From: Narcine bancroftii
Lineage: Eukaryota
DNA length: 64,000 nt
NCBI RefSeq assembly: GCF_036971445.1
Contig: NC_091469.1
Coordinates: 402,814,001-402,878,000, forward strand
Reading direction: 5' to 3'
The number at the start of each line of letters is the position of its first letter. Positions within the stretch are counted from its first letter, which is position 1. The position numbers were made by a program, and so were the translations under genes. Below, piece after piece: positions 2,593 through 53,870 of this stretch. The notes under the pieces were generated by a model. The model did not search any database, was not told where the DNA came from, and saw only the letters and a list, made by a program, of their open reading frames with translations.

Positions 2593-2795
2593 GCAATGAA
2601 TATCCAAGGCAGACTCAAGTTTCTTTATGAACAGAATATGAAGGGAAAAGATGGCTCAATTATCCCCCCACAGTTGGCATTGTTTGCAATAGCAAAGCCT
2701 CTACAACCTCCGTCCATTCTGGAAATCCGAACCAAAAATTTCATTTTCAGAACCAAACACAAATTGGACTTCACACCGATGGGATGCGATGCTAA
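2593..2795 (+). CDS. AHR: Aryl hydrocarbon receptor, internal exon (equivalent to exon 7; end of PAS-A region and start of PAS-B)
   Basis: Acceptor ttttctctcaAG at 2591-2592, donor GTAAG at 2796; 203 bp. Encodes [11 protein letters not shown]...[44 protein letters not shown], diagnostic of vertebrate AHR. Confidence 0.97.
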
Positions 2796-2970
2796 GTAAG
2801 TAGAAAATATTTGCTACAACATTTTAGCAAGATATTTTGTAAAATATCATATAATTTCTTTAATTTGTATGTTAAATTGCAGAAATTGTTCAATATGTCA
2901 AGTGCTCAAGGACCAAGTAATTTAAACATCTAATTATATGTAGAAATCGACCGGTGTGTTTATTAAGCAG

Positions 2971-4004: not shown

Positions 4005-6660
4005 GTTATATTTCAAGTCAAGTTTATTGTCATCTGATTGTACAAGTAAAACCTGACGAAACAGCATTCTCTGGTCCTCAGTGTAAAAACATACAGACAC
4101 ACAACCAGATAAAACATACATACAGACAAATATGAGGACAAATATTATATCTACATAAATAAATTCAAATGAGTGTTTCTGATAGTTAGTATGAGCAGTT
4201 CCTTTGGTCATTCAGCATTCTCACTGCCCATTGGAAGAAGCTGTTCCTCAGCCTGGTGGTGCTGGCTCTGATACTCTCTGCATTCTCTTCCCTGACAAGT
4301 GCAGCTGAAAGATGCTGTGTGCAGGTTGGAAAGGGTCATCTATGATTTTATGCGCCCTCTTCACACAACAATCCTGCTAAATCACATCGATGGTGGGGAG
4401 CAGGGGGGTGTGATGTGGAGAAAGCCTCCAGTGATCCTCTATGCCACTCTTATGGTCCTGTGGATTGACCTCCAATCCATTTCTCAGCAGCAAACATACC
4501 ACAATGTGATGCAACTGGCCAGGACACTCTCGATAGAGCTCAGAAGGTTAACATAATGGTGGCTGGTAGCCTTGCCCACTTCAGTCTTCTTTGGAAGTGT
4601 AGTTGCTGTTGGGCCTTCATGATAAGTGAGAAGATGTTGAGTTTCCACGATAGTTAAGTGAACTCCAAGGAATTTAGTTCTCTCCACTCTCTACGACAGA
4701 GTTGTTGATGTTTAGTGGAGGGTGGTCATTCCTGGTCCCCCTGAAGTCCACGTCTTGTCCACGTTGAAACTCAAGTTGTTATTCTCGCACAATTTCATGA
4801 GATTTTCCACTTCTTCTTTGTAATGCGATTTGTCATTGTTGTTGATGAGACCAACTACTGTTGTATCGTTTACAAACTTGATGACGCTGTTGGAGCTGGA
4901 TCTGGTGATACAGTCATGGGTCAGTAGCGAGAACAGGAGTGGGCTGAGCACACAGCCCTGAGGTGTGCCAGTGCTCAGTGTTTTGGTGCTCATTATTCTG
5001 CTATTGACCCAGACAGACTGTGGTCTGTTAGGAAGTCCAGGATCCAATTACAGAGAGGAGTATTGAGTCTCAGCAAGGACAGCTACTCCACCAGCCTCTG
5101 TAGAATTATCGTATTAAATGCTGAGCTGAAGTCAATGAACACAGACTGGCATATGAAATGTTGTTCTCCAGGTGGGCCAGGATAGAGTGAAGCGACAAGG
5201 CTATAGCATCATCTGTGGAACAATTTCTTCTATATGCAAATTGAAATTGATCCAGCGTCCCAGAGAGGTGTGATATTACACGTTCCATCACCAGACGCTC
5301 AAAGCATTTCATCATGGTGGAGATCAGTGCCACAGAGAGGTAGTCATTGAGACCTGTTATTGTTGCCCTCTTGATTACTGGAATGATGGTGGCTGTCTTG
5401 AACCCTGTGGAATTAATGGACTGCTGCAGTGAGGTGTTGAACATGTCTGTGAAGATCTCTGTAAGTTGGTCTGTGCTGTCCTTCAATACCCGACCAGGTA
5501 TGTTGTCTGGTCCCATTGCATTGCGTCGGTTCACTTGGCCGTGTCTATGCGGGGCGCTAGTTCATCAGGGGCACACGGAGTTTTCTCTGACATCATCCTG
5601 TTCTTCTCATCAAACCATGCATAGAAGGGCTTCAGTCTGTCCCAAAGGGAGATGTTATTGTCCTTAATTTGTACGGTTGACGGGTGTTCCATTATAGTCT
5701 TGATCCCTTGCCACATGTGCCTTGTGTCACACAGCTGTCCATGGATCTTCTGTGTGTACCCTTGCTTTGCCTTACAGATTGCAAGGGAGAGTTCAGCCCT
5801 GACTGATCTTAGTGCCATCCTATCCCTTATCCTGAAGGCAGCATCACAAACTCTGAGAAGGGCCTGGACTTCTGTATTCAACCATGGTTCCTGGTTGTGA
5901 AACATTTGATCTCAGTGACATCCTTGTGCACTTGCCGATGTAGCCAGTCACTGAGCTCCTGTACACTTCTATGTTTAAGTGACCATTATAGGTGGCTACC
6001 TCCCTGAAACTACTCCAATTTGTGTGACCGAGAATTTCCTAAGCAGGTAGAAATGTCTGCATTTCACCAGGAAGTAATCTCTCTGCTGAGCAGAAGGTCT
6101 TCACAATGAAGATGTTGGCGTACCAGTTAAAATGCACAGACCACCTGCATGAGTCTTGCCAGAAGCAGCAGTATCTCTGTCTGCCTTGAAGGAGATAAGG
6201 CCATCCAGCTGGATTACTGAGTCTGGAATTATGTCCTGGAGCCAGGTTTCTGTAATCACCAAAGCACAGCAGCCCTGCAGTTCACTCTGGTTCAGCTACA
6301 GTCTCAGGTAATCCATTTTCTCTTCCAGCGATCTTATATTTGAGAGTAAGATCATTGGGAGCACGAGTTTGAAGGGGTTAACTCTCAGTCTTACCCTGAT
6401 GCCGGCCAATTTTCCACACTTCTGTCTTCTCCAGCAGTGCTTCCAATGACCTCCCGCGCGTCTCCTGTGATCCGCTCCGCAGTTTACAGCAGTCTCTGTT
6501 CTCCGATTCAGTAGGTTTAAACTGCACAGGATCTTACTGATCCATTAATTTGAAAGTTCAGTTCATGTTTTGTATTTTGACATGAGTTTTTTAATCGTAG
6601 ATGCCACATAGTGGGTGGGGGTTTCACCATTGTAAGGAGCCGAAGTGACTGCTACAACCT
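4005..6660 (-). mobile_element. Rex1/Babar-clade LINE, long degenerate copy (APE endonuclease plus RT)
   Basis: Minus-strand peptides GPDNIPGRVLK, MKCFERLV, QFAYRRN.STDDAI, PQGCVLSPLLFSLLTHDC, KFVNDTTVVGLI; endonuclease remnant ITETWL near 6240; many frameshifts. Confidence 0.85.
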
Positions 6661-7105: not shown

Positions 7106-7531
7106 CAGTACAACACTGATTATCCAAAATCAGATTTTCTGAAATCCTCAATTATCTGATTTTTTTTTTAATTGGATAATCAAGGATATCCAAAATCCTC
7201 ATTTATCCAAATTTTTATTGGTGCCGAGCTGACCAGGAGCCTCGGGCTCCCAACGGTAGCAGCAGACCTCAGGCTCCTGGATAGGAGTGGGACCCTTAAG
7301 CTCCCAGCTCTAGCAGGGCCTTGGTGAGGAGCTGTCGGTGATCAGTGGTGGCCAGCATTTTTTTTGGTGAGTATTAAGCATTATTTTAATACTTACAAAA
7401 GCCTTCCCTTGTTGTTTAAACGCTGTTACAAGTAATTTGCTGTTGCTACTGGGCTGTTTTTTTAAAAAATGACCAGTCTCCAAAAAAAATAGGCCCAATC
7501 CTGACCATTTTGGATAATCGGAGTTGTACTG
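7106..7531. mobile_element. MITE (Tc1/mariner-pogo type) with TA target duplication, inserted in a CR1 3' fragment
   Basis: TA|CAGTACAACACTGATTATCCAAAAT ... ATTTTGGATAATCGGAGTTGTACTG|TA. Confidence 0.88.
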
Positions 7532-7729
7532 TATTCTATGTGAGAAATATTTACTCCTCAGATGCTATTTGAACTTCCTCCCTCTCAGCTGATATCAATA
7601 CTGTCTAGTTTTAGATACACCTACCATTGTACTGTATTCTATGTGAGAAATATTTACTCCTCAGATGCTATTTGAACTTCCTCCCTCTCAGCTAATGTCA
7701 ATACTGTCTAGCTTTAGATACACCTACCA
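7524..7729. repeat. Tandem duplication, 2 x 103 bp
   Basis: 7524-7626 and 7627-7729 differ by about 3 substitutions. Confidence 0.92.
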
Positions 7730-12725: not shown

Positions 12726-13137
12726 AATTTACTGTTTTATTTAAAATTTAGTTTAGATTTTTTTCTTACGGAATATATACAATTGACTAATGCAGCTATT
12801 AGTAAGAGTTGCCGTGTTGGCAGCTGGCACTCTGAGCCTACAGCTGTTTAAATTTAATTTTGGAGGCTTCCATTTGGGTTGTTCTTTGCATGCGATAAAT
12901 TCCATTGATCTTGTATGTTGGAAAATTTCTATTTTTGGCATGCGATTGTTGGTCACATATAGTATTTGGCAAATGTGTGATTTATTAGAAGTACCAAAAG
13001 GTTTTATTTTTTTCTCAATGTATTTTGAAGGGGGAGAAAGTTTCACTTTAACGTTGTTTTGGACAAATTAGTTGGAAGTATATTATGCATGCAAACCTGG
13101 CTGGTATGTGCAAACAAAAATACTTTTGTTTCTGCAG

Positions 13138-13247
13138 AGGGAGGATTGTCCTTGGTTACACTGAGGCTGAATTATGCATGCGAGGAAGCGGCTATCAATT
13201 TATTCATGCAGCTGACATGATGTACTGTGCAGAAAACCATGTCCGAA
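13138..13247 (+). CDS. AHR: AHR internal exon (equivalent to exon 8; PAS-B ligand-binding domain)
   Basis: tttctgcAG acceptor, GTAAGT donor at 13248; 110 bp; phase matches the previous exon (AA|A). Encodes [36 protein letters not shown]. Confidence 0.97.
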
Positions 13248-16175: not shown

Positions 16176-16587
16176 TAGTCCATGATGTTGTGACGAGCTA
16201 CACCAGAACAATCTAATTTTTCCCTACCTCGCACCTCTTTGATTTTCTTATAAAGAAGTTTTGATAATTTCTAGAAGTAAAATTTATAAACTTCAATTAA
16301 ATAAATATTCCTAAATCTTGCTTGTAGTGATGTATGGCTTGATTACATAGATAAATATGAGATTTTTTACATTTGCATGATGTTGATGATCAATAATCTT
16401 CAGTGTTCGCGCAGTAAGAAAGCATACACTTGATTTATTCTTTGTAGATTTTGTGTGATAAAGGAGATACAATTTTATTTATAATTGACTTGGTCATCAT
16501 CTCATAGTTCTAAAATATATTTGAAACATAAGTTCAATATATTGTAAGATTTCAATGTGACTTCCTTTTATGCTTTCTGCATTTCAG

Positions 16588-16729
16588 TGATGAAAACAGG
16601 GGAAAGTGGAATGACTGTTTTCAGGCTTTTGACCAAAGACAACAGGTGGACTTGGGTACAAGCAAATGCACGATTGGGATACAAAAATGGAAAGCCAGAT
16701 TTTATTATAGCTACACAAAAGCCCCTCAC
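16588..16729 (+). CDS. AHR: AHR internal exon (equivalent to exon 9; PAS-B C-terminal part)
   Basis: atttcAG acceptor, GTGAGT donor at 16730; 142 bp. Read by hand (absent from the ORF track): [48 protein letters not shown]. Confidence 0.97.
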
Positions 16730-18875
16730 GTGAGTACCAAAGGAGATTCACATTTAATTCCATTAGTATGTTAAGATTTTTACAAGAGCAGGCAACAGCA
16801 GACTCGACCAAATGGCCTACTTTTGCTCCTTATGGTCTTAATCTTGCCTTCCAGTGCTGTCTATGCAATTTGTACCTTCTTCCTGTGAGTACATGAGTTT
16901 TTGGTTCCCTCCCACACCCTGTGGAGACTTGTAGGTTAACTGGCCACTCTAAATTGCCCACATTTTGTAAGTGTATGGTTGAACCTGTAAAATTTGGTAA
17001 GAATGGAATGAGTATAGATTACAGGGAGATTAGTGGCATTGCTCTCTGAAATGGCAAGGTCTCAATTGTTCAAATGGTTTCCTCCTATGTCACAAGTAAA
17101 CATGCAGTTGGACCCATTATCATCCCATCTTGACTGTTTGATAACTTTACATCATGTATTTAAATCATTTTTTTCTAATGTCTCATTAATCTGTATCAGA
17201 CCAGAAAATATTTTTTTCTTGTTATTACTGATAATTCACTTTTCTTCAATGTAAAGAAAAATATATTTTCATTGGTTCAGTTGTTGAGGAAATATCAGTA
17301 AGTTTTTTTTTACACCTTAAACTCTAAAATTGCAACAATGTATTTTTTTTCCTCAGGTTACATTTTACTCTTGCCAACATGAGGAATGCTGTTATACTGC
17401 AGCTACCCTCCACTAATACTAATTGCATGTCAGTACCAATTAATTCAAGAGTAAAATAGCGAACTATAGAATGAACCCTTAATTTCACTATGTTCCAATC
17501 TTCAATCTCCCTAATGCAAGAGATTTGTATGTTTTGTTCAGAAGAACATCTGAGGAAGATCACTGTTGGAGACAGATTTATTTTCTGGTATCACCAATAA
17601 CACACTGGGCAAGACAGTCCATACAACACTAGAGGAGACCATCTAATTAACAACGCAGGACAGATTCAGGAATATTAAATTGCTCTCAGGTTGATGTCAC
17701 TTTCATTGATACTCTTTTGTGCTTAGTTGTGCATCTATATCTGGGATTTGGAAACTTTAGAAGCTCTAATATTCTCCTACAACATCCATTCTAAGTCACT
17801 AACATAGTTAAACAAATGCAATATTTTCCGACCCTAGATTTCTGTTTCTGCCTTAAGCTAATCAACTTATTTCAATAGATGGAGAACTATGACCTGTGAA
17901 TTGTAATAGAGTTTGAGCTCAAACCCTGTCCTGATTCTAATACATTTAAACACCCAATTCATATTGCAATAGATTGAATACACTTTCCTGTAAAGTTATT
18001 TAGTTTACCATAAAAGACCAGATGCCATTTTTGAAATTTCTAGAAAATCTGTTTCATGAATTATTCTCAATATATGATTGACCATGTAACAACAACATCC
18101 GTAACCAATCTTTCAGTTTTAACACCAACCCAGGAGCTGTGAGCTTACCAGGGATAGGTGATGCTCACCTGTAGCCAGCAGTTTTATGAGAATTTGCCAG
18201 GTATCTGCTATGCAGCACATTTTATACACAACAATTGACACAGAAATCCAATACAGCTGGATTTCAGATGCCAGTGTGAAGTTCTGTGAGAGAGCTCTTT
18301 TGTGATGAAGGCAGGGACCAGAAGAACTGTAACCCTATTTGAATGGGTTAGGGTTAGCCTTGCCCTACTGTGGTCACTGGAGTAAATAACCAGTGTAGAT
18401 AGGTGATTTACATAGTTTATTTGTTTTTACAAACATCTTGAGATAATGTTGATTAAATGTAACTTTTGAAATTATCTATACCTATTTGAAAATGTTCAAA
18501 TATTGAGAAACAATCAGCCAGCTTGCTGCATTTCAGAAGATGTGCCTCAAGACCTGATGTCTGTCTGCATTATATGTTCTCTCTACAGGATGTTCCTCAG
18601 GTTTGGAAGGTAAGCTTGGTTGGCCCTCCATATCTAGAAATAGATTAATAAGGACAGACAGCCAACATGGGCTGTGGGATTAGGCCACAGGCTTCTTCCA
18701 GGATGATGAACCCTTAATTATGCACCTAGCACCCTTTCCTGCAAATGCTGGAGTAACTTCTTCATCTCAAATTAACTAATTGTTCTTTGAAAGTACTATA
18801 AAATTAACAAAAATAGACCCGTGTTCTTGAATACAATATAAATGCTTGTAATAACAATAGGCTTTTTTTTTCCAG

Positions 18876-20637
18876 GGTGGAGGAAGGGGAAGAGAATTTG
18901 CAAAAACGAACTTTGCAGTTGCCTTTTAATTTTGCAACTGGGGAGGCTTTGCTCTATGAAGGAAATTGTACAATGCTTGGATTATCGAATCCTATAATTG
19001 ATCAAATCAAGCACACGGCAGTGGCAGAAACATCATGGAGGCAGGAACCGCTGGATCCAAACTCCATTCTTGGTGCTATGTTAAACCAAGATAGATCAGT
19101 GTATAGATCTGATTCTTCACAACATCAGAAATGTGATCTTGAAAATGCCCTTTTTAATGAGAGCAAAGTTACAGAACTAAGTGACGTCTATTCACAAGAG
19201 TGGGAAGAACTACTGTTCAATGAAGATAACAGTATACAGAAGATTGATTGCATTCAGAACCAAAAGCCTTTCCTTTCTCCTGAAAAAAATGTAGATTTTT
19301 TAGCAAATAACATCGGCAAGGAGCTTTATAACACTATGAAAAACCTTGATATAGAATTAGAAGACTTTGATCTTTTATCCAAGGATGAAACATTCCTGAC
19401 AATTAATTGGGATGAGGCTGGAGATATCGATAACATTTTACTGAATGATGAAATCCTAAGTTATGTTCAGGAATCCCTGAAGAAGAGGCCTGACTGCATG
19501 TATTCAAGCTGTGTACAAGAGAAGCCACTTAATTCAAACTCAAGTTACACAATACAGCAAAAACTTCCAACTCAGGACTTGCAACAAGAGCAGCAACAAC
19601 AGTTCCCAGCACATCTGCAGCACCAGCTGCCACTTCAAGTGCAACATTTGCAGCAGCTGCATCCAGTGCAACACTTGCAGGAGCACCAGCGCCCGGCGCC
19701 ACACTTGCAACAGCACCCGGTGCAACACTTGCAGGAGCACCCGGTGCAACACTTGCAGGAGCACCAGCACCCGGCACAACACTTGCAACAGCACCCGGCA
19801 CAACACTTGCAACAGCACCCGGTGCAACACTTGCAACAGCACCCGGTGCAACACTTGCAGGAGCACCAGCACCCGGCACAACACTTGCAACAGCACCCGG
19901 TGCAACACTTGCAGGAGCACCAGCACTCGGCACAACACTTGCAACAGCACCCGGTGCAACACTTGCAGGAGCACCAGCACCCGGCACAACACTTGCAGGA
20001 GCACCCAGTGCAACACTTGCAGGAGCACCAGCGCCCGGCGCCACACTTGCAGCAGCGCCCGGTGCAATACTTTCCCCCACAATACCTAGCACATTTGCAG
20101 CAGCAGAAACAACCCCTCCCAGTCCAACATTATCTGCAGCAACCACATTACCGGCAACAATCTCAAATACAAAATTATCAGCCGCAACAACAATTGTGCC
20201 AGAAAATGAAGCTCATGAATGTCAATGGCCTTTTCATAGACTGGAATTCTGGCAGTCTTGCTAATGTCTCTAGTTTGGACAGCACATCATCAGGGTTCCA
20301 ATACAAATCAGAGCATAATGTTACCACTTCAGCATGTCAACGACCCCTCCAGTTGTATCAGCAAGGAACTACACAGCCTTCTGACATCAGCCAAATAAAT
20401 GTGCCAATTGATGGCTTTCATACACAGAACAGCAGTACAGTAAATTGCCTGGATAACTACCTGAATTGTGTTCAGGACTGTCATGCTGTAAACCCATCAA
20501 TGGATTTAATTGCGTCACAGGCATGTTACACGGGTGCCATGTCAATGATTCCATGTCCAGCAGAAAATGATTCGTCCGGTGTGGGTACAGTGCAATTCAA
20601 GTCAACAAACTCTAGCCAACAGTCATTTTTAGCAAAG
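18876..20637 (+). CDS. AHR: AHR large exon (equivalent to exon 10; transactivation domain with acidic, Q-rich and P/S/T parts)
   Basis: polyT-ccAG acceptor, AAG|GTAAAA donor; 1762 bp open. AHR motifs EEGEENLQKR, LPFNFATGEALLYE, DPNSILGAML, DEILSYVQESL, QQLCQKMK, ACYTGAMSM; ends QQSFLAK like the mammalian exon end. Confidence 0.95.
19660..20055 (+). repeat. Coding minisatellite in AHR: 15 units of 24 or 30 bp (HP[V/A]QHLQ[Q/E] with or without HQ)
   Basis: Nine 24-bp and six 30-bp units, core CAACACTTGCA; 396 bp, frame-preserving. Confidence 0.97.
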
Positions 20638-20959
20638 GTAAAAATGATTTTCTTTGACTTCATTCTTGGGATGTAGGCGACAGCTGGTAAGGACGGCATT
20701 TCTTGCTTGTCCCAAATTGCTCTGAGAAGTTGTTGGTGGAATTGGTTGGACTCGAAAGACACTAGATACATTGATGAAGGGCTCAAGCCTGAAATGTTAG
20801 TTATGTATCTTTTTCTTTGCTACATACTCTAAAGTACATTTTGACTTGCTGAGTTTCTCCAGCATTATGTTTTCACTTTTTTGAAGTTAAATAAGTATTT
20901 TGTTTTTGAACAGATAACCTCCCAAAAATTGAGGATTACAAGTCGTCAAGACTTAGCTG

Positions 20960-21720
20960 AGCTTAAAGACTATAAGCATTAGTAAAAACTGACAAATATT
21001 TGGAGAAATTGAAGGGACACAATTTTGCAAAAGGTGGCTCCAGAGATACTGGATGCATTGATTGGACCTTCCAAACTTCCATGGATTCTAGAATGGCTCC
21101 CACAGATGGGAAGGTAGCAAATGTAATGCAGCCACATCAAAGGGAGAAAGAGAACAGGGAACTATAGATATTTTGGCTTGACATCTTTTTAAGGAAAATG
21201 CTGAAATCTATTATTAAACAAGTCAAATGATGCACAGAAAAAAAATAGTCATACTAGATAGAGTCAACATGGATTTATGAAAGGAAAATTATATTTGATT
21301 GATGTTTTTGCACTATTTAAGGTTTCAAAATCATTTGAAAAGATGCCACACAATATTAAAATTAGAGTGTGTTTGTACTGGGGTAGGATAAATTAAGGTT
21401 TAGTTAACAGACAGATAGAATAGATATAAATGAATTATTTTCAGTTTGCATATCCATAAGCATTGATGCTGGGCTGATAACAATCTCTATAAATGATTTG
21501 GATGAAGGAATCAAATGCAAATTTACTGAAACCAAGCTTGTTGAGGAGAACACAGAGGAAGCTCAGGGGATATCGATGGACTAAGTAAGTCGGCAAGGGT
21601 ATATTGTGCAATAAAGTGAGGTCTTTAACTTTGGTAAAGGAAAGGTATATTTTACATAGTGCAAGATTGAAAAATGTTGGGATCATGGGACTAAGTAACT
21701 GAAAGTTGATATGTTGGGCA
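20960..21720 (+). mobile_element. Old, highly degenerate CR1 RT fragment
   Basis: Remnants ggaaggtagcaaatgta (WKVANV-like), agtcaacatggatttatgaaaggaaaa (SQHGFMKGK) and ataaatgatttggat (INDLD). Confidence 0.7.
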
Positions 21721-21804
21721 AGAATTAAATAGAATTTTTCTCATAATACAAATGTGAAATAGTGAGGGAAAATGTTTCAATGAAAGAGAGATACCTTAAT
21801 ATAT

Positions 21805-21805
<1 letters not shown>

Positions 21806-21842
<37 letters not shown>

Positions 21843-21857
21843 ATATACACACACACA
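21806..21857. repeat. (TA)n(CA)n microsatellite
   Basis: Direct reading. Confidence 0.95.
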
Positions 21858-22149
21858 GGGTGGTCAGTGCCTGAAATGCGCTGCCAGCAAAATTAATGGA
21901 AGCAGGTATCATGGCAATCTTTGAGAGAGCCCCATGAATAGACAGAGAATGGAGTGATTATGGACCTTGTGCAGGTAGATTGGTTTAGTTTAGAATGGCA
22001 TCATGGTCAACACAGACATAGTGGGCTAAAGAAACTGTTTCTGTGCTGCACTGTTCTTTTATCTGAATCCAAGGACTGAAATTTTGCTCCAATTTATATG
22101 ATTACAGACCCCAGGTGAGATCACACCTTGAATATAGGATGCAAGTCTG

Positions 22150-23490
22150 GACTCCTTACTTCTTTTAAAAAAATTATAAGCTTGCGTTTGATGAAATGTT
22201 GCACAGGTTATAAGCAAAAAAACAAGAAGACATCTGAATAAAGACTGGGGAATGGCAGGGGGAGGATTCCAGACCAACAGTCAAAAGATGTTAATGGGAT
22301 ATGAGAAGAGGAAAGGAGAGAGGGGAAAGAAGAAAAAAAAGGGGGGGGTTAACAGAAACCAGAGTAATCAATGTTAATGCCATCCTGTGGATGGTGTCCA
22401 GATAGAAGATGAGATGTTATTGCTCCAATTTACAGTTGATCTCTGTATGGCAGTATGAGTCCATGGACAGACATGTCAAAAAGGCAATGGGACAGGGAAT
22501 TGAAATGGGTGGCCACTGGGAGATCCACGCTATTTCAGCAGACAGACCTGAGGTCCTCAACAAAGTGATCTCCCAGTCTGTGCCCAATCTCTCTCATATA
22601 GGGGAGGCCAAAATTTGTCTGGCATAATTGGTCCTTGCCCTCAATAACTTCTCCTTTGGCTCATCCCATTTTCTCCTGGTCAAAGGGTTAGTCATGGGTA
22701 CCGCATGGGCACCAGCTATGTCTGCCTTTTTGTTGGCTACGTGGAACAATCCATGCTTCAAGCCTTCATAGGCAAGGCTCCTCACTCTTCCTCCATTACA
22801 TCGACAACTACTTTAGTGCTGTCTCTTGCACTTATGATGAGCTCGTTGACTTTATCCAGTTTGCTGCCACTTTCCACCCCAACCTCAAATTCACTTGGTC
22901 AATCTCGAGCAATAATCTCCCTTTTCTCGATTCTCCATCTCGGGAGACAAATGCTCGACAGACATCTTCTACAAACCCACTTATGTATCTGTATTCCCAG
23001 ATCGCTCTGTTCTACTGCACTGCTCAGTGTCCTGTCATTTACCATACATGTCTTTTCTTGTTTCTTTTTTTCCAAATTGCAAAACCTCACACTGGTCTCA
23101 TGCACTGCCAAGCTGAGACCACCTGAAAATTGGAGGAACAATACCTTATCCTCCGTCTGGGCAACATCTAACTGCCATTAACTTTGACTTTTCCGGTTTC
23201 AATTAATTTCCCCCGCTCTCCTTCTTCCCCGTTTCCTTTCCCCCAGTGTGTATGCTCTCTCCATCTCCTTTCACCAAGACAAAATCAATTCTCACCTTTC
23301 CTCATATCATATCCAATTAACACCTTTTGAGTGTTGGTCTGGACTCCTCCCCTGCCATTCTTCAATCTTTATTCCAATACGGTTTTTTTTGCTGTATCTT
23401 GAAGAAGAGCTCAAACCCAAAACGTCATTAATCTATCTTTACTTCCCATGGATGCTGCAAGACCAGCTGAGTTCCTTCAGCATTTCTGTG
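22150..23490. mobile_element. Penelope-like element remnants: an inverted 3' piece (about 22150-22600, minus) next to plus-strand RT and 3' pieces, with a small CR1 insert at about 22985-23090
   Basis: MGTSYVCLFVGYVEQSM resembles the Penelope RT motif MGPSYACLFVG. aaattggaggaacaataccttatcctccgtctggg (KLEEQ.LI.RLG) occurs at about 23130 and as a diverged reverse complement at about 22405-22430. Confidence 0.7.
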
Positions 23491-25376
23491 CAAAATTATA
23501 TGAAGCTTATGTTTGAGATTAGTGAAGAAAGGCATTGTGTTCATTTGGAAAATAAGAACGTTGGTTGAAGTCCAGCATGTCGATGAATAAGAGGAAAGGG
23601 GCAAGACAATATTGCACAGTGGTGGGTGCAATATACTTGCATCAATTTGAAGATTAATTTTATTTGAAGGGGTTATGGCCAGAAGGGCATATCCTCCGTG
23701 TCTTCAAGGAGTAAATCTTTGTGCTTCAATAGATTGAGCAGTGGCAGGTTTTCCATTGAGATCAGGTAGAGGTTCAGCCTTGAAGCCTGGACTGTAGTCC
23801 TCCAGTTCTTGTCCCCAGGTCACTTCATTATCACTTGTCCCATGAGGTTCAATTTTTCAGCCTGGAGAAGAAAACGGAAATTCATTGATAGAAAACAGAT
23901 TAACATGTGGATAAGCCAATACGATGGACAACCTTATGGCTCAATGTAACATACCCTGTAGTCATGGTCTTAAGTGATTTTATTTGTTTGGCAAAAGAAA
24001 GAATTCTTCCCCTTGAACATGCATATTGGATGTAGCCAAAACCCCTGGAATGATTGCATGATCCGCTGTGCTATTATATTACAGTTCGTCAGGCAGGAGA
24101 GAAAATTGCTTTTGACTTTTCACACCAGTGAGGTATTCAACAACTACAGCCAAATGTACATATAATGAGGGTCACAGGCATTTGGGACTAAGCAGAATAA
24201 TAGTTCATGCAGTCTAGATGGGCTGACGGGCCTGTTTGCGTGCTGTCGTGTTCTATGGTCCACAGCCATTTCTCTCCATTTGCAGTAAGGACAGGTTGAT
24301 TACTCTTTGTTTCAGATGGGAATCCCACACACAGTCACAACTCGGATCAAAAGAGTCTGTGCTTGGGAATTCATCAATTAGTGGGTATGATGGCCTCACC
24401 ATTGTCTTGTTCAGTGGGCAAGGCCTGACCGGTTTCAAATGTTGAATACCTGAAAGAAGCAGGGATAGAAGGGGAAGCAGACAAGTCAGAGACTTAAACA
24501 ATCTGCATCTTGAAAATCAGAAGAGAATGTAGGATGAAGGGGCAGTGAGGTGCAAGGATAATAACCTTCAATGTTCCGCACACTATTACTGGCTACAGAG
24601 TGTAAAATGGCCACACTAAAAATAGCTGGAAACCAGTGTACAGACACTTTTGTATCTACTGTTGATATGTTGCTTCTGGCAGTAGCTCTATGATGCCTCT
24701 TGGAAGAGGGAGAAGGGGAAAGTGTCTCACCACATGACTGGGTAATATAACTATATTAGTAGTAAGAATTAACATTGTTATTTAGCTCATTTTTGTATGG
24801 AAATATACTGTACAAGTGACTGTTCAGAGTCAGTCCTAGATGAAAGATAAAGGCATTGGGTAGGTGATTTGAGTATATTTTAGGAGGACATTCTACGGGA
24901 TGTCACAGTTGTTAATGGACAGGACTCGCTTGGATACAAACTCCTTAAACATTCCAAAACGGTATTGATTTTTTTACTTTGCATTGGGGTGAATGTTAGT
25001 AGAACTAAATTCAAACTGCCAAAGCTATAATATTTTTAAATTTGATCATTTATTTCATGGATTAATGTCACATTATTTTTGAAAAGGCAATATGATGAGA
25101 TGGGTTTATGAATTTAACATTGGAATATCCTTAACAGTTACATGATCATGCTTATTGTTTTAATCAATTTTCATAACAATCTTAAATCATTAATTTCAAC
25201 TGTGTATATTTTGTGTGTGTACATATATACATACATACACACTCATGGTAGATTGAAAAACAATTTGTATTTTAAACTTTAGAGTTGGTTCACCAAGATC
25301 TAGGAAACACCGCATAATGTTGGCAATGGGTCCATTTTAAAAAAAACTAAGAACATGTTTCTCTTTGCCTCGACAG

Positions 25377-25529
25377 ACCCAAACTGGATGTAATGATGGA
25401 AACAGTAATGAAGTGTATCCAAGTGTGTTCAATAATGTGAATTGCACACCCTCAGCCCCTCAGGTTCGACACCACCATCCAAGAGAGCCTGGACTCTACT
25501 CAAATCAATCTTCTGGTGGCTTTATTTAG
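25377..25529 (+). CDS. AHR: AHR terminal coding exon (equivalent to exon 11)
   Basis: tttctctttgcctcgacAG acceptor, phase 0. Encodes TQTGCNDGNSNEVYPSVFNNVNCTPSAPQVRHHHPREPGLYSNQSSGGFI then TAG (25527-25529), resembling the mammalian AHR C-terminus (NETYP...SSGFL). This suggests the mammalian-type AHR/AHR1 lineage rather than AHR2. Confidence 0.9.
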   Translation, partial: TQTGCNDGNSNEVYPSVFNNVNCTPSAPQVRHHHPREPGLYSNQSSGGFI

Positions 25530-27964
25530 GCAAACATGATTTATTTTTTTTTTGTTCTGTGACAAAAAGTGTGGGAGTGTTTTTGTGTTGCTTGCTGAAG
25601 GAACTGACTTTTGTACATGGAATATGAAAGGATGCAGTTTCTAAATTGAAGAATCTTAACAAGCGGGGCACTGTAATCTGCTGGATTTTATTATGGGCTC
25701 TCGTCCTCAAAACCATAATGTTCTTTTATAGTCTGGTTTCCTTATGTATTTTGTTCCAAAATTCATATGGCAAATATATTGTTGGTTGGAGTTGTAGCAT
25801 TCGGAACCACACACATTTTAAAATGAACCTACTTGTACAACTATAGAAGCTGATGATTCCAGCACTAAATATAAAAAGGCCTTCAGTAATTTGCCAGGTA
25901 TACATTTGCCAAATGAAAATAGCTCTTCCAAGACTAGATGTGAGATAAGATTTTGACAATCATTTTGCCGTTTCATCTTATTCCCACACTATACCTGTTC
26001 TGGCACTTTAAAAAGCAATAGTAACACAAGAACAGTGAGAAGCACAAAAATTATAAAGGATTTTTCTTCCATAGAGCAGCTGGCAGTGTATATAAGAATA
26101 TTTGGTTATTTATTTTTGTTCTCATAAAGCAGTACTTAAATATTGCTCCCATATGTGATGATGATGTTGTAGAAGTTCACGTCCTGAAGACTTAACATTT
26201 AACATCACTTACATGCTTACTCAAACTTGCCCAAGATGACATGTTATAATGGGAATGTGGAAGAACTCTGTGCATAATTAGTAACATTCCTTGAGACTAA
26301 GAAACACCAATTATTTTCAGTGACAAAAAGTTATCACACACATGCTGTACAAGTAGAATAGGGGAACATTGGAATAATTTGTGAGTTTAAATTGGCCAAT
26401 GGAATTTTATTAATAATTGAGGTTAATGGGATTATCTGGGGCTTTTATTCACTAAAGCAGACATCTGTTGGGCCCCATTTTCTGTCCTTCCTTTAACACA
26501 AACATGCATGAAATTTTTAATGATTGTCCATTTAATTGGATTAAAATACTGTAGTTGTTTCATATGTTCATACTGTAGTTGTGTGTTATGCATTGTTCAC
26601 AACTTCAGCAGATATTTAACATTACAGAACAATTGTTAAATAGAGTGGTTATGTTTAGAAGCATTTTCTCTCTCTCTCCCATTTATATCCAAAGCTCAAT
26701 AATAGACACCTTATCTTCCATGAATTGAATTACTTAATTATGCCTCCATCAAATTTCTGAACCATGATATAGACAGGTGTATGTAATTTAAAGAAAATAT
26801 GGTCTATGCAGCTACTCAGTTTGTGTAAATTGGTAGTTTTACAGATGTTGACATATGGTTAGCTCTGGCATGTATGGCATGGATGTAACATGAGACAAGA
26901 AAACTGTATTGAGGATTATTGCTTGGGATTTCCCATTATTTGTACTTTTATCTAGTAATTATAGATAGTATGTTCTTCCATGAGAACCAAGTCACTGTTA
27001 TTACACCTACGCCTTGTATATTGTGTACTCTTTCAGAGAAAATATACTTAAAAGTAAAAACTCATTGATTCAAAGATAGTACAAACTACAATACAATTTT
27101 GCTTTAATTACTAGAAGTTATCCTGTATAGTTTATCAAAGAAATGTACTTTTTGAATGCAATTACTTTATCAGTCAAGTTTTCTAGACTAAAAATGCATC
27201 TACTGGTGCAAAATTTACCTTTTTCAATAATTAATAACATTGTACATGTTCACATTTACAGCGTCAATTGTGTAATATTTTCTGAACAAAATTGTCCTTG
27301 TGAAAATAATTTTATTAAGATACATTTATTACATTTTTAAAATTAGCTGGTTGCATATGCAAAAACCAAAAGACTGTAATGTACAAAGCAAAAGATGTTG
27401 GTTTTTAAAATATTCATCCATGTTAGCTGTCACTTTTTTTTTGAAAAGCAATTTCAAATGGACATCACATAAAATTACTTTGCCTTTTACTTAACACAAA
27501 ATTCAATATTTGTGCACTTCAGCCAAGAAACATTTACAATCCATCAAGCGAAATAAAAGTTCAGTTGAACATGATTTGGAATTGGATTTGTTCTGAAACC
27601 GAATCAATCAAATGTAACATTTGTACCTCACTTCTTATTATTGGCTACGTATGCATGTGTTCTGTAATCTGTTTCAGAATACTAAACAATTCTTTAATAT
27701 TGCATTATTTATCCACGATAAAGGAATATGTTTAATAATGCCTTCTGGCTATTTAATGATTTATCAATTCCATCTATGTCTTGAGTTTCTCCCTTGGACT
27801 GTAAATTATTGAGTGCCCTAGTAGCATCGACATGCCTTTAGTTTCCAAACCCAAATGAATATTGCTGAGCTAATCTCATTGATGGATATCTGCCATGCTT
27901 TAAAGGATTTAGTTATGATTAAATATCAATTTGCAACACCTTTGCATATCTTTTTTAAAAATAT

Positions 27965-31191: not shown

Positions 31192-32050
31192 TCTTTGGCT
31201 TGGCTTCGCGGACAAAGATTTATGGAGGGGGTAAAAAGTCCACGTCAGCTGCAGGCTCGTTTGTGGCTGACAAGTCCGATGCGGGACAGGCAGACACGGT
31301 TGCAGCGGTTGCAGGGGAAAATTGGTTGGTTGGGGTTGGGTGTTGGGTTTTTCCTCCTTTGCCTTTTGTCAGTGAGGTGGGCTCTGCGGTCTTCTTCAAA
31401 GGAGGTTGCTGCCCACCAAACTGTGAGGCGCCGAGATGCACGGTTTGAGGTGATATCAGCCCACTGGCGGTGGTCAATGTGGCAGGCACCAAGAGATTTC
31501 TTTAGGCAGTCCTTGTACCTTTTCTTTGGTGCACCTCTGTCATGGTGGCCAGTGGAGAGCTCGCCATATAACACGATCTTGGGAAGGCGATGGTCCTCCA
31601 TTCTGGAGACGTGACCCACCCAGCGCAGCTGGATCTTCAGCAGCGTGGACTCGATGCTGTCGACCACTGCCATCTCGAGTACTTCGACGTTAGGGATGAA
31701 AGCGCTCCAATGAATGTTGAGGATGGAGCGGAGACAACGCTGGTGGAAGCGTTCTAGGAGCCATAGGTGATGCCGGTAGAGGACCCATGATTCGGAGCCG
31801 AACAGGAGTGTGGGTATGACAACGGCTCTGTATATGCTTATCTTTGTGAGGTTTTTCAGTTGGTTGTTTTTCCAGACTCTTGTGTAGTCTTCCAAAGGCG
31901 CTATTTGCCTTGGCGAGTCTGTTGTCTATCTCATTGTCGATCCTTGCATCTGATGAAATGGTGCAGCCGAGATAGGTAAACTGGTTGACCGTTTTGAGTT
32001 TTGTGTGCCCGATGGAGATGTGGGGGGGCTGGTAGTCATGGTGGGGAGCT
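31192..32050 (-). mobile_element. Young RTE LINE, 5'-truncated (about 860 bp)
   Basis: Peptide YRAVVIPTLLFGSESW...LRWVGHVSRMEDHRLPKIVLYGEL...C2H2-like end CNRC...SHKRAC; family 3' motif. Confidence 0.95.
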
Positions 32051-43410: not shown

Positions 43411-43930
43411 CTTTGGCTTGACTTCGCGGACGAAGATTTATGGAGGGGGTAAAAAGTCCACGTCAGCTGCAGGCTCGTTTGTGGCTGACAAGTCCGATGC
43501 GGGACAGGCAGACACGATTGCAGCGGTTGCAGGGGAAAATTGGTTGGTTGGGGTTGGGTGTTGGGTTTTTCCTCCTTTGCCTTTTGTCAGTGAGGTAGGC
43601 TCTGCGGTCTTCTTCAAAGGAGGTTGCTGCCCGCCAAACTGTGAGGCGCCAAGTTGCACGGTTTGAGGCGTTATCAGCCCACTGGCGGTGGTCAATGTGG
43701 CAGGCACCAAGAGATTTCTTTAGGCAGTCCTTGTACCTTTTCTTTGGTGCACCTCTGTCACGGTGGCCAGTGGAGAGCTCGCCATATAACACGATCTTGG
43801 GAAGGCGATGGTCCTCCATTCTGGAGACGTGACCCATCCAGCGCAGCTGGATCTTCAGCAGCGTGGACTCGATGCTGTCGACCTCTGCCATCTCGAGTAC
43901 TTCGACGTTAGGGATGTAAGCGCTCAATGG
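43411..43930 (-). mobile_element. Young RTE LINE 3' fragment with 9-bp TSD
   Basis: TSD AGTTGGTTT at 43402-43410 and 43931-43939; intact peptide from IPNVEVLEM to SHKRACS. Confidence 0.95.
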
Positions 43931-45027
43931 AGTTGGTTTAGTGAGAATTAATTTCACCAACAGTACAACAAATCAACTTTAACATGCATAAAGTACAAAA
44001 TAGAAGAATAAAAACATATGACATTGCATAATGTTATAATGCACAGCAAGGGCAGCATGAGATTTCAGCATATCTACACTGCCAGAATACATACATGACA
44101 TCACATACAACCCTGAGATTCTTTTTCCTGGTAATTCTGCCTCAGCATAGGTTGCATGTGATGTATATACTCTGACAATAAATCTGAAATCTGCAATCAT
44201 GATTGAAAGAAGTCAGATGGATGCAGGAAAGAAATCATCTCTGAACCTGGCTTTGGGCAGCAAATCAATAGCAGTGCAATCTGGAAAGGTAAGGCCATTT
44301 AGATCAGCTTGGCTTGCTATGTGGAAAGCTTAGGCACTCTGTTTATGAAACCAGAATGAACTGTAAACAGAATAAATTTTATTTTATTTTATCTTCATTA
44401 ACTTAAATTTCTCATGGTGTGTTAAGAATACACAATGATGACTAGGTGAATTGAAATCCGAGGCTAAACTAGACACAACATAGTCAATGTTCTTCTTGAT
44501 GTTATAGATAATCTGGTTAAAAATAGTTATCGTGGCATTATTCATTAACGATTAAGTGTCTTAAATTGGTTTCAATGTTATGCATATTTGGCTGGTACAT
44601 CTTTTCACTTGTTTATTTGATTGCTTGTCTTGGTTATAAATAAGGTCTCTGTGTTAAATTAACCTGATACTTAGCCTGATTACATCAGATAGATCTGCTT
44701 TACCTCAGCTGTTTCTTTCCCATTCCTTCTCCCACTTCACTTCCAACAGCTACAATGGTTCCTCAATTATCCTTTCTATGTTAGCACGTTATCACACTCC
44801 ACACCAAATACAATATTGTTTCAGTTATCCTTGAGAAAGAGTAATCACTTCCAAATGAATTGTAAATAGTTTAAATATTATCTTACAATGCAATGTTTTT
44901 CTTGGCATAATATAGCAGCTGTAAAATTCATGGTCTTTCTAGTAAAAGGATGGATAACCAAATACAGGTGCATACAAAGACTCATCATAACCATAATTCC
45001 AAATCACACCAGATATATACAGTGTAC

Positions 45028-46586: not shown

Positions 46587-46750
46587 GATCTACAACTTTG
46601 AGGAAAGTTGCTCTTTAGAATTGGAAGAATTTTCATCTTATTTTTCCCATTTCTCAATTAATGATTTAAAATAAAGACAAAGTCATCAAAAATTTGTTTA
46701 AAATAGGATGACAATAATTCTTGCTGTTTTGCTCTCCTTTACATAACCAG

Positions 46751-48030
46751 GGCTGGTAATCATGGTGGGGAGCTGGCTGATGGAGGACCTCAGTTTTCTT
46801 CAGGCTGACTTCCAGGCCAAACATTTTGGCAGTTTCCGCAAAGCAGGACGTCAAGCGCTGAAGAGCTGGCTCTGAATGGGCAACTAAAGCGGCATCGTCT
46901 GCAAAGAGTAGTTCACGGACAAGTTTCTCTTGTGTCTTGGTGTGAGCTTGCAGGCGCCTCAGATTGAAGAGACTGCCATCCGTGCGGTACCGGATGTAAA
47001 CAGCATCTTCATTGTTGGGGACTTTCATGGCTTGGTTCAGCATCATGCTGAAGAAGATTGAAAAGAGGGTTGGTGCCTCCATCAGCCAGCTCCCCACCAT
47101 GATTACCAGCCCCCCCACATCTCCATCGGGCACACAAAACTCAAAACGGTCAACCAGTTTACCTATCTCGGCTGCACCATTTCATCAGATGCAAGGATCG
47201 ACAATGAGATAGACAACAGACTCGCCAAGGCAAATAGCGCCTTTGGAAGACTACACAAAAGAGTCTGGAAAAACAACCAACTGAAAAACCTCACAAAGAT
47301 AAGCGTATACAGAGCCGTTGTCATACCCACACTCCTGTTCGGCTCCGAATCATGGGTCCTCTACCGGCACCACCTACGGCTCCTAGAACGCTTCCACCAG
47401 CGTTGTCTCCGCTCCATCCTCAACATCCATTGGAGCGCTTACATCCCTAACGTCGAAGTACTCGAGATGGCAGAGGTCGACAGCATCGAGTCCACGCTGC
47501 TGAAGATCCAGCTGCGCTGGATGGGTCACGTCTCCAGAATGGAGGACCATCGCCTTCCCAAGATCGTGTTATATGGCGAGCTCTCCACTGGCCACTGTGA
47601 CAGAGGTGCACCAAAGAAAAGGTACAAGGACTGCCTAAAGAAATCTCTTGGTGCCTGCCACATTGACCACCGCCAGTGGGTGCACCAAAGAAAAGGTACA
47701 AGGACTGCCTAAAGAAATCTCTTGGTGCCTGCCACATTGACCACCGCTAGTGGGCTGATAACGCCTCAAACCGTGCATCTTGGCGCCTCACAGTTTGGCG
47801 GGCAGCAACCTCCTTTGAAGAAGACCGCAGAGCCCACCTCACTGACAAAAGGCAAAGGAGGAAAAACCCAACACCCAACCCCAACCAACCATATTTTCCC
47901 CTGCAACCGCTGCAATCGTGTCTGCCTGTCCCGCATCGGACTTGTCAGCCACAAACGAGCCTGCAGCTGACGTGGACTTTTTTACCCCCTCCATAAATCT
48001 TCGTCCGCGAAGCCAAGCCAAAGAAGAAAG
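46751..48030 (+). mobile_element. Young RTE copy A: inverted 5' segment (46751-47076) plus sense segment (47076-48030) with an internal 74-bp duplication
   Basis: Minus-strand peptide APTLFSIFFSMML...ELLFADDAAL...; plus strand runs to the family 3' end; flanked by ACATAACCAG. Confidence 0.93.
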
Positions 48031-48040
48031 ACATAACCAG

Positions 48041-49353
48041 ATCACGAAGGTCCTGAGGCAGTTTTCCTTGGTCCCAACAAAGCTTGAAAAACTCATGCAG
48101 TTTGACATGCAGAATTTTGCCGCCAGCCTTCCAGACCTCTGGGGAGATTCCATCCATACCTGCTGCTTTGCCACTTTTCAGTTTTTCGATTGCCTTATAT
48201 GTCTCATCCTGGGTGAGGACCTCATCCAGCTCTAGCCTTAGGGGCTGTTGAGGGAGCTGGAGCAGGGCGGAATCTTGGACTGAGTGGTTGGCACTGAAAA
48301 GAGATTGGAAGTGCTCTGGCCATCGGTTGAGGATGGAGATCTTGTCGCTGAGGAGGATTTTGCCGTCTGAGCTGCGCAGCGGGCTTTGGACTTGGGGTGA
48401 GGGGCCGTACACAGCCTTTAGAGCCTCGTAGAAACCCCTGAAGTCGCCAATGTCCGCGCTGAGCTGGGTTCGCTTAGCGAGGCTAGTCCACCACTCATTT
48501 TGGATCTCCCGGAGTTTGCGCTGAAGATGGCTGCATGCGCGACGGAAGGCTTGTTTCTTCTCTGGACAGGACGGCTTTGTAAGGTGAGCCTGGTGGGCAG
48601 CTCGCTTCTTTGCCAGCAGCTCCTGGATTTCCTGGCTGTTTTCGTCGAACCAGTCCTTGTTTTTCCTGGAGGAGAAGCGCAGTACCTCTTCAGTGGATTG
48701 CAGTATGGTAGTCTTCAGCTGATCCCAGAGGGTTTCAGGGGACGGGTCCGTGAGGCGGATTGCATCGTCGAGCTTTGCTTTGAGGTTTGCCTGGAAGTTT
48801 CCTCTCACTTGGTCTGACTGCAGGTTTCCAACGTTGAACCTCTTTCTGGGGGCTTTACTGATCCTGGGCTTTGACTTGAAGTGAAGGTTGAGCTTGCAGC
48901 GAACCAGCCAGTGGTCAGTGTGGCATTCCACGCTGGGCATGACCCTGGTGTGGAGCACATCTCGTTTGTCACTTTCTTGCACCAGGATGTAGTCCAGGAG
49001 GTGCACCAAAGAAAAGGTACAAGGACTGCCTAAAGAAATCTCTTTGTGCCTGCCACATTGACCACCGCCAGTGGGCTGATATCGCCTCAACCGTGCATCT
49101 TGGCGCCTCACAGTTCGGCAGGCAGCAACCTCCTTTGAAGAAGACCGCAGAGCCCACCTCACTGACAAAAGGCAAAAGAGGAAAAACCCAACACCCAACC
49201 CCAACCAACCAATTTTCCCCTGCAACCGCTGCAACCGTGTCTGCCTGTCCCGCATCGGACTTGTCAGCCACAAATGAGCCTGCAGCTGACGTGGACATTT
49301 ACCCCCTCCATAAATCTTCGTCCGTGAAGCCAAGCCAAAGAGAAAGAAGAGAG
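48041..49353 (+). mobile_element. Young RTE copy B: inverted 5' segment (48041-49004) plus sense 3' segment (48998-49353)
   Basis: Minus-strand open frame HLLDYILV...TDHWLV...KSGKAAGMDGI...LPQDLRD; plus-strand 3' end; flanked by ACATAACCAG(AT). Confidence 0.93.
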
Positions 49354-53420: not shown

Positions 53421-53870
53421 AAAATCCACACATTTATCCACATTAAACTGCATCTTACCCAACCTGTCCAAGTCACCCTGCATTCTCATAACATCCTCCT
53501 CACATTTCACACAGTCACCCAGCTTTGTGACATCTGCAAACTTGCTAATGTTGCTTTTAATCCCTTCATCTAAAACATTAATGTATATTATAAATAACTG
53601 CAGTCCCAGCAATGAGCTTAGTCTACCCCATTAGTCTCTGCTTACCACACTGAAAAGGACCCATTAATCCCTACTCTGTTTCCTGTCTGCCAACCAATTT
53701 TCAATCCATGTCAGTACCCTACCCCAATACCATGCGTTCTAATTTTGCCCATTAATCTCCTATGTGGGACCTTATCAAAGGCTTTCAGAAAGTCCAGGTA
53801 CACTACATCCACTGACCTACCCTTGTCCATTTTCATAGTTACATCCTCAAAAAATTTCATAAGATTAGTC

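What the first reader, a model, noticed from the sequence alone, without database searches (positions are those of the whole stretch)
19660..20055. 132-aa His/Gln tandem repeat inside the AHR transactivation domain
Seen: 15 near-perfect units (HPVQHLQQ, HPAQHLQQ, HPVQHLQE, HPVQHLQEHQ, RPAPHLQQ) lie between the acidic subdomain and the conserved QQLCQKMK motif. All unit lengths are multiples of 3 and synonymous divergence is very low, so the expansion is recent and frame-constrained. Established: the Q-rich subdomain of mammalian AHR recruits coactivators but is not a His-periodic tandem array. Inference: this is a lineage-specific coding VNTR that could tune transactivation strength, condensate formation, or pH/metal sensitivity.
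Basis: partly seen in the sequence, partly recalled or inferred. Interest (0 to 1): 0.7.

Follow-up and report, generated by a model that had tools for sequence, protein, structure and literature searches.

The report
Shark-and-ray-wide repeat in dioxin receptor
This electric ray's dioxin receptor (AHR) carries a real, transcribed 15-unit histidine/glutamine repeat in its activation domain, but nearly all sharks and rays examined have their own long repeat at the same spot, so it is likely a tolerated repeat hotspot in a flexible linker, with at most a modest predicted effect on gene activation.

Summary
The repeat is real: 15 units (9 of 24 bp, 6 of 30 bp), 132 aa, 34 His and 41 Gln, at exactly 19660-20055. 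It lies in the large exon (18876-20637) of the AHR1 gene, whose product is annotated in Narcine bancroftii. Three RNA assemblies splice this exon normally; their contigs enter the repeat from both sides (two runs) or from the 3' side (one). The expansion is not lineage-specific: 18 of 19 elasmobranch orthologs have 165-351 aa in this slot (Narcine 238, rank 11), against a median of 49 in other vertebrates. Each lineage has its own unit, and length changes fast between close species. Koala and brushtail possum expanded the same slot independently, and an enlarged Q-rich region is published for hamster. Specific to Narcine among those sampled is the His-periodic unit (27 HxxxH versus 0-2), likely one Leu-to-His change spread by homogenisation. 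Synonymous divergence between units is not low (pS 0.31, pN 0.09). Most likely this is a tolerated minisatellite in a disordered linker between the acidic subdomain and the conserved V647 motif. A selected tuning role is possible (about 25%); His sensing is unlikely (about 5%).

The parts
19660..20055 (+). Core coding minisatellite: 15 units of [HR][PS][VA][QP]HLQ[QE] with or without HQ; 132 aa; 41 Q, 34 H, 16 P, 15 L, no aromatic residue
19564..19659 (+). 5' degenerate units, including the LPTQ-type first unit seen in many elasmobranch orthologs
   Evidence: homology of the unit is inferred
20056..20193 (+). 3' degenerate units, including one retained batoid-type PLPVQH unit (CCC CTC CCA GTC CAA CAT)
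19480..20193 (+). Whole variable slot between YVQESL and LCQK: 238 aa here, 84-351 aa in 19 elasmobranchs, 48 aa in human
19321..19479 (+). Acidic subdomain of the transactivation domain (approximate limits), ending in DEILSYVQESL; aligns with human DEILTYVQDSL at residue 579
   Evidence: the subdomain name follows PMC8708342 passages, limits are my estimate
20194..20223 (+). Conserved LCQKMKLMNV motif; the Val at 20221-20223 is the equivalent of human V647, which is needed for nuclear export
   Evidence: V in 21 of 21 rows; function from PMC4989234 passages
18876..20637 (+). Large transactivation-domain exon of AHR1 (numbered exon 10 by analogy with other AHRs), spliced GT..AG at both ends
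16588..16729 (+). Preceding exon (end of PAS-B); 5' limit as covered by RNA contigs
13127..13246 (+). Upstream PAS-B exon (approximate tblastn limits)
2593..2796 (+). Upstream exon leading into PAS-B (approximate tblastn limits); the bHLH and PAS-A exons lie outside the window
25377..25529 (+). Last coding exon through the TAG stop

Best explanation
This is a transcribed, in-frame minisatellite in the Q-rich slot of the electric ray's AHR1 activation domain, a slot that holds a long repeat in 18 of 19 sharks and rays examined, and it likely works as a tolerated, disordered Q/P-rich linker with at most a modest effect on transactivation. Shown: position, unit structure, splicing of the exon, orthology, clade-wide length, lineage-specific units and fast length change between close species. 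Inferred: an ancestral P-x-x-Q-H-hydrophobic-Q(n) unit began to amplify in the elasmobranch stem; slippage and unequal exchange keep adding, deleting and homogenising units, so each lineage ends up with its own unit. In the Narcine line a CTC-to-CAC (Leu-to-His) change and loss of the polyQ spacer turned batoid QQPLPVQHLQQ into HPVQHLQ[QE], and homogenisation spread it, giving His every fourth residue as a by-product. Inferred function: the segment lengthens the spacing between the acidic subdomain and the conserved LCQKMK/V647 motif, both intact, and may add weak multivalent Gln/Leu contacts for coactivators; selection mainly keeps the frame and a Q/P-rich character.
For: Slot length 84-351 aa (median 243) in 19 elasmobranch species against median 49 in 98 other vertebrate AHR1 rows (the 7 rows that regex missed were 38-57 aa). 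Different units per lineage: PLTQQY x14 in Carcharodon, PTQHFQ x15 in Heptranchias, QPLPVQ x14-17 in Pristis and Mobula hypostoma, QLLQPP x8-9 in bamboo and epaulette sharks, HPVQHL x8 in Narcine. Fast change: two Mobula species 99.0% identical outside the slot have 282 and 351 aa; Cetorhinus and Carcharodon 97.7%, 177 and 301 aa; Amblyraja and Leucoraja 98.9%, 218 and 256 aa. Pristiophorus has only 84 aa. Independent expansions in koala (186 aa) and brushtail possum (113 aa). A batoid-type PLPVQH unit survives in the Narcine 3' flank and one HPVQH copy occurs in Pristis. Higher-order duplications of 54-108 bp period within the array. Functional motif V647 kept next to the slot. A single-sequence AlphaFold model shows no secondary structure in the repeat (mean pLDDT 38.6; weak evidence, since there was no alignment).
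Against: A long slot is kept in 18 of 19 species with a similar Pro/Gln/hydrophobic grammar despite full unit turnover, which pure drift does not obviously predict. pN/pS among units is about 0.29, although it rests on 4 synonymous of 9 distinct changes (binomial P = 0.097). The mammalian Q-rich subdomain has the strongest transactivation potency, and its Gln content is reported to correlate with TCDD LD50 across mammals (PMC8708342 passages). Two Scyliorhinus torazame records have identical 237-aa slots, so length is not freely variable everywhere. No functional assay was possible.
Confidence: 0.65

Rival explanations
1. The long slot is a selected tuning knob: elasmobranch AHR1 needs a long multivalent Pro/Gln/hydrophobic array to set coactivator recruitment or condensate behaviour, and repeat length sets species sensitivity to dioxin-like ligands, as proposed for hamster.
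For: 18 of 19 elasmobranchs keep at least 165 aa with a shared grammar; pN below pS among units; hamster Q-rich region is twice that of guinea pig and is proposed to underlie the sensitivity difference, and SRC-1 and RIP140 bind the Q-rich subdomain (PMC8708342 passages); killifish AHR1 SNPs with signs of selection cluster in the Q-rich region (PMC3899389 passages).
Against: Length differs by up to 124 aa between species 97.7% identical elsewhere, and Pristiophorus has 84 aa. The human residues mapped as needed for export and nuclear retention (647, 648-661) lie outside the slot. The pN/pS signal is not significant. The hamster link is a correlation as reported in a review.
Confidence: 0.26
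2. The Narcine unit is a His-based pH or Zn/Cu/Ni sensor: His at i, i+4 along the array switch charge or bind metal and so gate transactivation or condensation.
For: 34 His in 132 aa, mostly 4 apart; 27 HxxxH motifs against 0-2 in the other 18 elasmobranchs.
Against: One Leu-to-His base change spread by homogenisation explains the pattern (inferred). His codons are one step from Gln codons, and 79% of the slot is made of such one-step residues, as in the other species (68-84%). Pro or Ser every 8-10 residues would break the helix that i, i+4 chelation needs (general knowledge). All other sampled orthologs lack it. His at unit position 1 is replaced by Arg in 2 of 15 units.
Confidence: 0.05
3. 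The array is an assembly artefact, or is removed from the mRNA.
For: No contig in the four runs laid spans the array; two Chiloscyllium punctatum records that are 100% identical elsewhere differ by 50 aa in the slot, showing that records can disagree; only 15 of 312 joints were listed.
Against: DNA contig ends match the assembled ends exactly. Spliced contigs of X5 and X6 run into the array from both sides, X8 from the 3' side, and further contigs cover its interior in X5 and X6. Two unnamed full-length records (P0077, P0080) on 4.3 and 5.2 kb contigs carry the whole skate-type slot. All RefSeq Narcine isoforms read (4 of 6) contain the same array.
Confidence: 0.04

Closest known systems
Expanded Q-rich subdomain of hamster AHR (Korkalainen et al. 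2000, PMID 10873598; not held, known here from review passages in PMC8708342 and PMC3901886; that it arose from short satellite-like repeats is recalled, not seen in a call)
   Same: Enlarged Gln-rich part of the AHR1 transactivation domain in one lineage, with an otherwise conserved receptor; proposed to alter dioxin sensitivity
   Different: Here the expansion is shared by nearly a whole clade with a different unit in each lineage, and the Narcine unit is His-periodic with no Gln run longer than 4. The hamster sequence was not retrieved, so the exact site could not be compared
Elasmobranch AHR1 orthologs (for example Pristis XP_051871502.1, Mobula XP_062899833.1, Carcharodon XP_041039920.1, Heptranchias XP_067859888.1)
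   Same: Same gene, same slot, similar or greater length, P-x-x-Q-[HQ]-hydrophobic unit
   Different: Their units are separated by polyQ runs of variable length and hold 1-10% His; Narcine has 17% His in the slot, fixed 8- or 10-aa units and Glu at some positions
Koala and brushtail possum AHR (XP_020855663.1, XP_036615333.1)
   Same: Independent Q/P/L/H tandem expansion between the acidic subdomain and LCQKMK
   Different: Lies before the SSCM motif, not after it; unit of the QPPLQ type
PolyQ and other coding tandem repeats in transactivation domains, such as the androgen receptor polyQ (mentioned in PMC3901886; others recalled)
   Same: In-frame repeat in a disordered activation domain, capable in principle of modulating output
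   Different: A 24/30-bp minisatellite, not a trinucleotide tract; polymorphism and effect not shown here

Membership tests
AHR1 (ortholog of mammalian AHR) | [quoted passage not shown] | tested here: met
   P0016 (100% identical to window residues 1-240 of the exon) carries PF00010, PF00989, PF08447, PF14598; PAS-B exons map in the window; bHLH and PAS-A exons lie outside it
AHR1 (ortholog of mammalian AHR) | Groups with tetrapod AHR and fish AHR1a, apart from AHR2 | tested here: met
   Quick IQ-TREE of 38 rows with the slot removed: Narcine sits in the batoid clade inside a 33-row group with human, gar and Callorhinchus AHR1a (SH-aLRT 100), apart from 5 teleost rows, 3 of them named AHR2. 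The careful search did not finish, rooting is midpoint, and no AHR3 or AHRR rows were included
AHR1 (ortholog of mammalian AHR) | Conserved LCQKMK...V647 motif of the Q-rich subdomain | tested here: met
   V present in 21 of 21 rows checked
AHR1 (ortholog of mammalian AHR) | Ligand-dependent XRE transactivation | not testable with these tools
   needs a reporter assay
Coding minisatellite | Head-to-tail units of 10-60 bp in an expressed exon, frame kept | tested here: met
Coding VNTR (polymorphic) | Copy number varies among individuals of the species | tested here: inconclusive
   No read spans the Narcine array. In relatives: C. punctatum 267 vs 217 aa (could be a collapsed draft), S. torazame 237 vs 237, skate-type records 255/256/257
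Lineage-specific expansion | Absent or short in sister lineages | tested here: not met
   All 7 other batoids have 218-351 aa and 10 of 11 sharks 165-301 aa; only the unit sequence is specific. No other electric ray was available
His-rich metal or pH sensing repeat | Periodic His conserved across relatives | tested here: not met
   HxxxH count 0-2 in the other 18 elasmobranchs; close electric-ray relatives not sampled
His-rich metal or pH sensing repeat | Measured metal binding or pH switch | not testable with these tools
   needs biochemistry

The most novel reading that the evidence does not exclude
Sharks and rays evolved a clade-wide, continually rewritten repeat module in the AHR1 activation domain that selection keeps long and multivalent, acting as a dial for coactivator recruitment and hence for species sensitivity to dioxin-like pollutants; electric rays turned it into a His-periodic version that adds pH or metal dependence (the His part alone about 5%).
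Probability: 0.2. Interest if true: 0.6.

Novelty: new variant of a known kind. Interest (0 to 1): 0.3.

Why it matters
Coding repeats in Q-rich activation domains are common, and an enlarged AHR Q-rich region is already published for hamster, so the Narcine array alone is modest. The more useful result is the natural series: 19 elasmobranch AHR1 proteins with nearly identical flanks and slots of 84-351 aa built from different units, plus independent marsupial expansions. That series makes an old correlational claim, that Q-rich length shifts dioxin sensitivity, testable with swap constructs, and bears on pollutant risk in sharks and rays. I did not find the elasmobranch expansion described in the library searched (judged from listings and from passages of the papers named in the report); most subscription papers, including the dogfish and skate AHR cloning work I recall, are not held.

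Tried and rejected
No whole genome is held for this window, so I could not test whether other Narcine transcription factors also have enlarged Q-rich repeats. Pfam gave 0 families for the exon. The sequencing-run search listed no holder on record as RNA; splice joints in X5, X6 and X8 later showed that these are RNA assemblies; 4 of 13 listed runs were laid, and the five small-share runs of other organisms were not. Copy number from contig depth: the interior gave 703 (X1), 524 (X5) and 340 (X6) base-equivalents against 283-1499 simulated depending on the unknown minimum contig length, so it is inconclusive and was dropped. The single-sequence AlphaFold model (pLDDT 38.6) was too poor for a fold search. 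phmmer over 50% cluster representatives gave 39 hits; I read 9 of the new ones: 7 AHR-like proteins of other vertebrates and 2 unrelated Q/H/P-rich proteins, no other electric-ray AHR. The primary hamster and SRC-1 papers are not held; a search for 'satellite-like' found 0 papers; the condensate search and the residue 663/678 search gave no relevant listing and none was opened. Earlier findings of this scan: none. Other reading frames over the array are also open but are by-products of a stop-free unit; only the AHR frame has homologs and splice support. No supplementary files were read.

Full report
Observation. The array is as described: 15 units from 19660 to 20055, nine of 24 bp and six of 30 bp (core plus CACCAG), 132 aa with 41 Gln, 34 His, 16 Pro and 15 Leu; His are mostly four residues apart. 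TRF finds it at periods 24, 54 and 78, and exact internal duplications of 47-65 bp at offsets of 54, 78, 102, 108, 210 and 342 bp show higher-order copying. One unit matches 15 places in the window at up to 4 mismatches, all in the array. Degenerate units flank it on both sides. The claim of very low synonymous divergence does not hold: mean pS among the 15 cores is 0.31 and pN 0.088. These rest on only nine distinct changes, four of them synonymous (counted; binomial P = 0.097 against the site share), so they neither date the array nor prove constraint.

The gene. The exon's first 240 residues are 100% identical to 'aryl hydrocarbon receptor-like' of Narcine bancroftii (P0016, XP_069769894.1). 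The longest isoform maps to five exons in the window. A quick tree of 38 proteins with the repeat slot removed puts it among batoids, inside a group with Callorhinchus, gar and tetrapod AHR1 (SH-aLRT 100) and apart from five teleost rows, three named AHR2 (careful search unfinished, midpoint root, no AHR3 or AHRR rows). It is the ortholog of mammalian AHR.

Is it real and expressed? Four of 13 listed runs were laid on 16400-25800. In the DNA run X1, contigs end at 19692 and restart at 20022, exactly the breakpoints a k=31 graph of the assembled array predicts; X1 may be the assembly's own sample. X5, X6 and X8 each show GT..AG joints 16729-18876 and 20635-25375 (cut +2), absent from X1. Spliced contigs of X5 and X6 reach into the array from the left (to 19692) and all three from the right (from 20005); after subtracting the flank contigs, other contigs still cover the interior in X5 and X6. 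No joint inside the exon is among the 15 listed (297 not shown). No contig spans the array, so full inclusion and exact copy number are inferred, not shown. Two unnamed records, 99.7-99.9% identical to Leucoraja AHR outside the slot, hold full-length 1048- and 1050-aa frames on 4.3 and 5.2 kb contigs, which implies spliced transcripts with the whole skate-type repeat.

The comparison that changes the reading. I measured the slot between the end of the acidic segment (YVQESL) and LCQK. In 19 elasmobranch species it is 84-351 aa, median 243, and 18 of 19 are at least 165 aa; Narcine's 238 aa ranks 11th. In 105 other vertebrate AHR1 rows, 98 measured by that script have median 49 aa, with only koala (186), brushtail possum (113) and gar (86) above 80; the seven missed rows were 38-57 aa. 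Callorhinchus has 61 and human 48. This outgroup set comes from a search with the short Callorhinchus segment (best 120 of 122 listed) and is biased towards short slots; hamster was not retrieved. Species are also not independent, so the Mann-Whitney P is not a fair test. Each elasmobranch lineage has its own dominant unit (PLTQQY, PTQHFQ, QLLQPP, QPLPVQ, QLPPVQ, HPVQHL), mostly fitting a P-x-x-Q-[HQ]-hydrophobic-Q(n) pattern. Length moves quickly: 282 vs 351 aa in two Mobula species 99.0% identical elsewhere, 177 vs 301 in Cetorhinus and Carcharodon (97.7%), 218 vs 256 in two skates (98.9%). Against free variation, the two Chiloscyllium species have equal lengths (267) and two S. torazame records are identical in the slot; two C. 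punctatum records differ by 50 aa, which may be polymorphism or collapse in the draft.

What is special in Narcine. His is 17% of the slot against 1-10% elsewhere, there are 27 HxxxH motifs against 0-2, and no Gln run exceeds 4. The unit is one base from the batoid unit: the 3' flank keeps CCC CTC CCA GTC CAA CAT (PLPVQH), the array has CAC CCG GTG CAA CAC, and Pristis has one HPVQH copy. I infer a Leu-to-His change and loss of the polyQ spacer, spread by homogenisation. No other electric ray could be retrieved, so the age of the unit is open.

How it most likely works. The slot lies between two conserved elements. Human V647 is required for nuclear export and residues 648-661 for ligand-induced nuclear retention (PMC4989234, passages); these map to the LCQKMK motif just downstream of the slot, and the Val is kept in 21 of 21 rows. 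A single-sequence model gives the repeat no secondary structure (weak evidence). The simplest mechanism is a permissive disordered linker that tolerates repeat gain and loss as long as frame and Q/P-rich character are kept, with at most a modest quantitative effect on coactivator contacts (65%). A selected tuning role (26%) is favoured by long-term retention of length and grammar and by mammalian reports that the Q-rich subdomain binds SRC-1 and RIP140 and differs two-fold between hamster and guinea pig (PMC8708342, passages; that review attributes the 'substantially expanded' region to the Han/Wistar rat while citing the hamster paper). It is weakened by the 84-aa Pristiophorus slot and by large length jumps between close species. 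A His pH or metal sensor (5%) has only the periodicity in its favour. An artefact is unlikely (4%).

Relation to what is known. Papers seen: passages of PMC8708342, PMC7009407 (first 300,000 characters only), 10.1101/2022.07.13.499904, PMC3899389, PMC13747243, PMC7542227, PMC4989234, PMC3901886 and PMC6163841; all others as search listings only; no supplements. Korkalainen 2000 and the Kumar and Perdew papers were not held; that the hamster expansion came from satellite-like repeats, and that human residues 663-688 are critical for transactivation, is recalled. None of the searches turned up a description of the elasmobranch expansion, but the library lacks most subscription papers, and the proteins are all in RefSeq. 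Verdict: a real feature, a new variant of a known kind. The interesting unit is the clade-wide hotspot, not the Narcine array alone. Interest 0.3.

Noticed in passing
window about 20245-20275 (+), between LCQK and YKSE: Narcine is 9 aa shorter here (36 residues) than all 18 other elasmobranchs (45); it lacks the QEKQF-like stretch. This abuts the human 648-661 nuclear-retention segment and may overlap human 663-688, recalled as critical for transactivation.
   Followed up: partly
window 20005-20022, runs X5, X6, X8 versus X1: All three RNA assemblies start their right-hand contig at 20005, whereas X1 and the simulation give 20022. The branch into unit 2 is missing in RNA, through graph pruning or a different allele; unexplained.
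   Followed up: partly
window 17817 (intron): T in the window and X1, A in contigs of X5 and X8: the RNA donor may be a different animal from the DNA run.
   Followed up: no
proteins P0204 and P0203 (koala, brushtail possum AHR): Independent Q/P/L/H tandem expansions of the same slot (186 and 113 aa), placed before the SSCM motif; Dromiciops has a short slot.
   Followed up: partly
proteins P0198, P0199, P0160: A vole AHR, a similar unnamed record and a Pteronotus bat AHR show small duplications in or beside the slot (66-75 aa).
   Followed up: no
protein P0021 (Pristiophorus japonicus): Only elasmobranch with a short slot (84 aa, three or four units); likely a secondary contraction since Heptranchias has 243 aa, or a collapsed record.
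   Followed up: no
window 31248-31925, 43466-43972, 46669-49372, 52667-53630, 58017-58625, 63108-63998 and AHR introns (4487-6544, 20771-20873, 22260-23490): Many fragments that look like LINE reverse transcriptase and high-copy interspersed repeats (label from recall of such motifs; very high depth); no second gene was evident among frames of 130 aa or more beyond 25 kb.
   Followed up: no
window 7524-7729 and 47605-47754: Near-perfect two-copy tandem duplications of 103 bp (97%) and 74 bp (98%).
   Followed up: no
window 16701-18898 and 23461-25404, run X8: Contigs cover both introns flanking the large exon at low depth (18.6 and 35.7 against about 800-1200 for exons): pre-mRNA, retained introns or DNA.
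   Followed up: no
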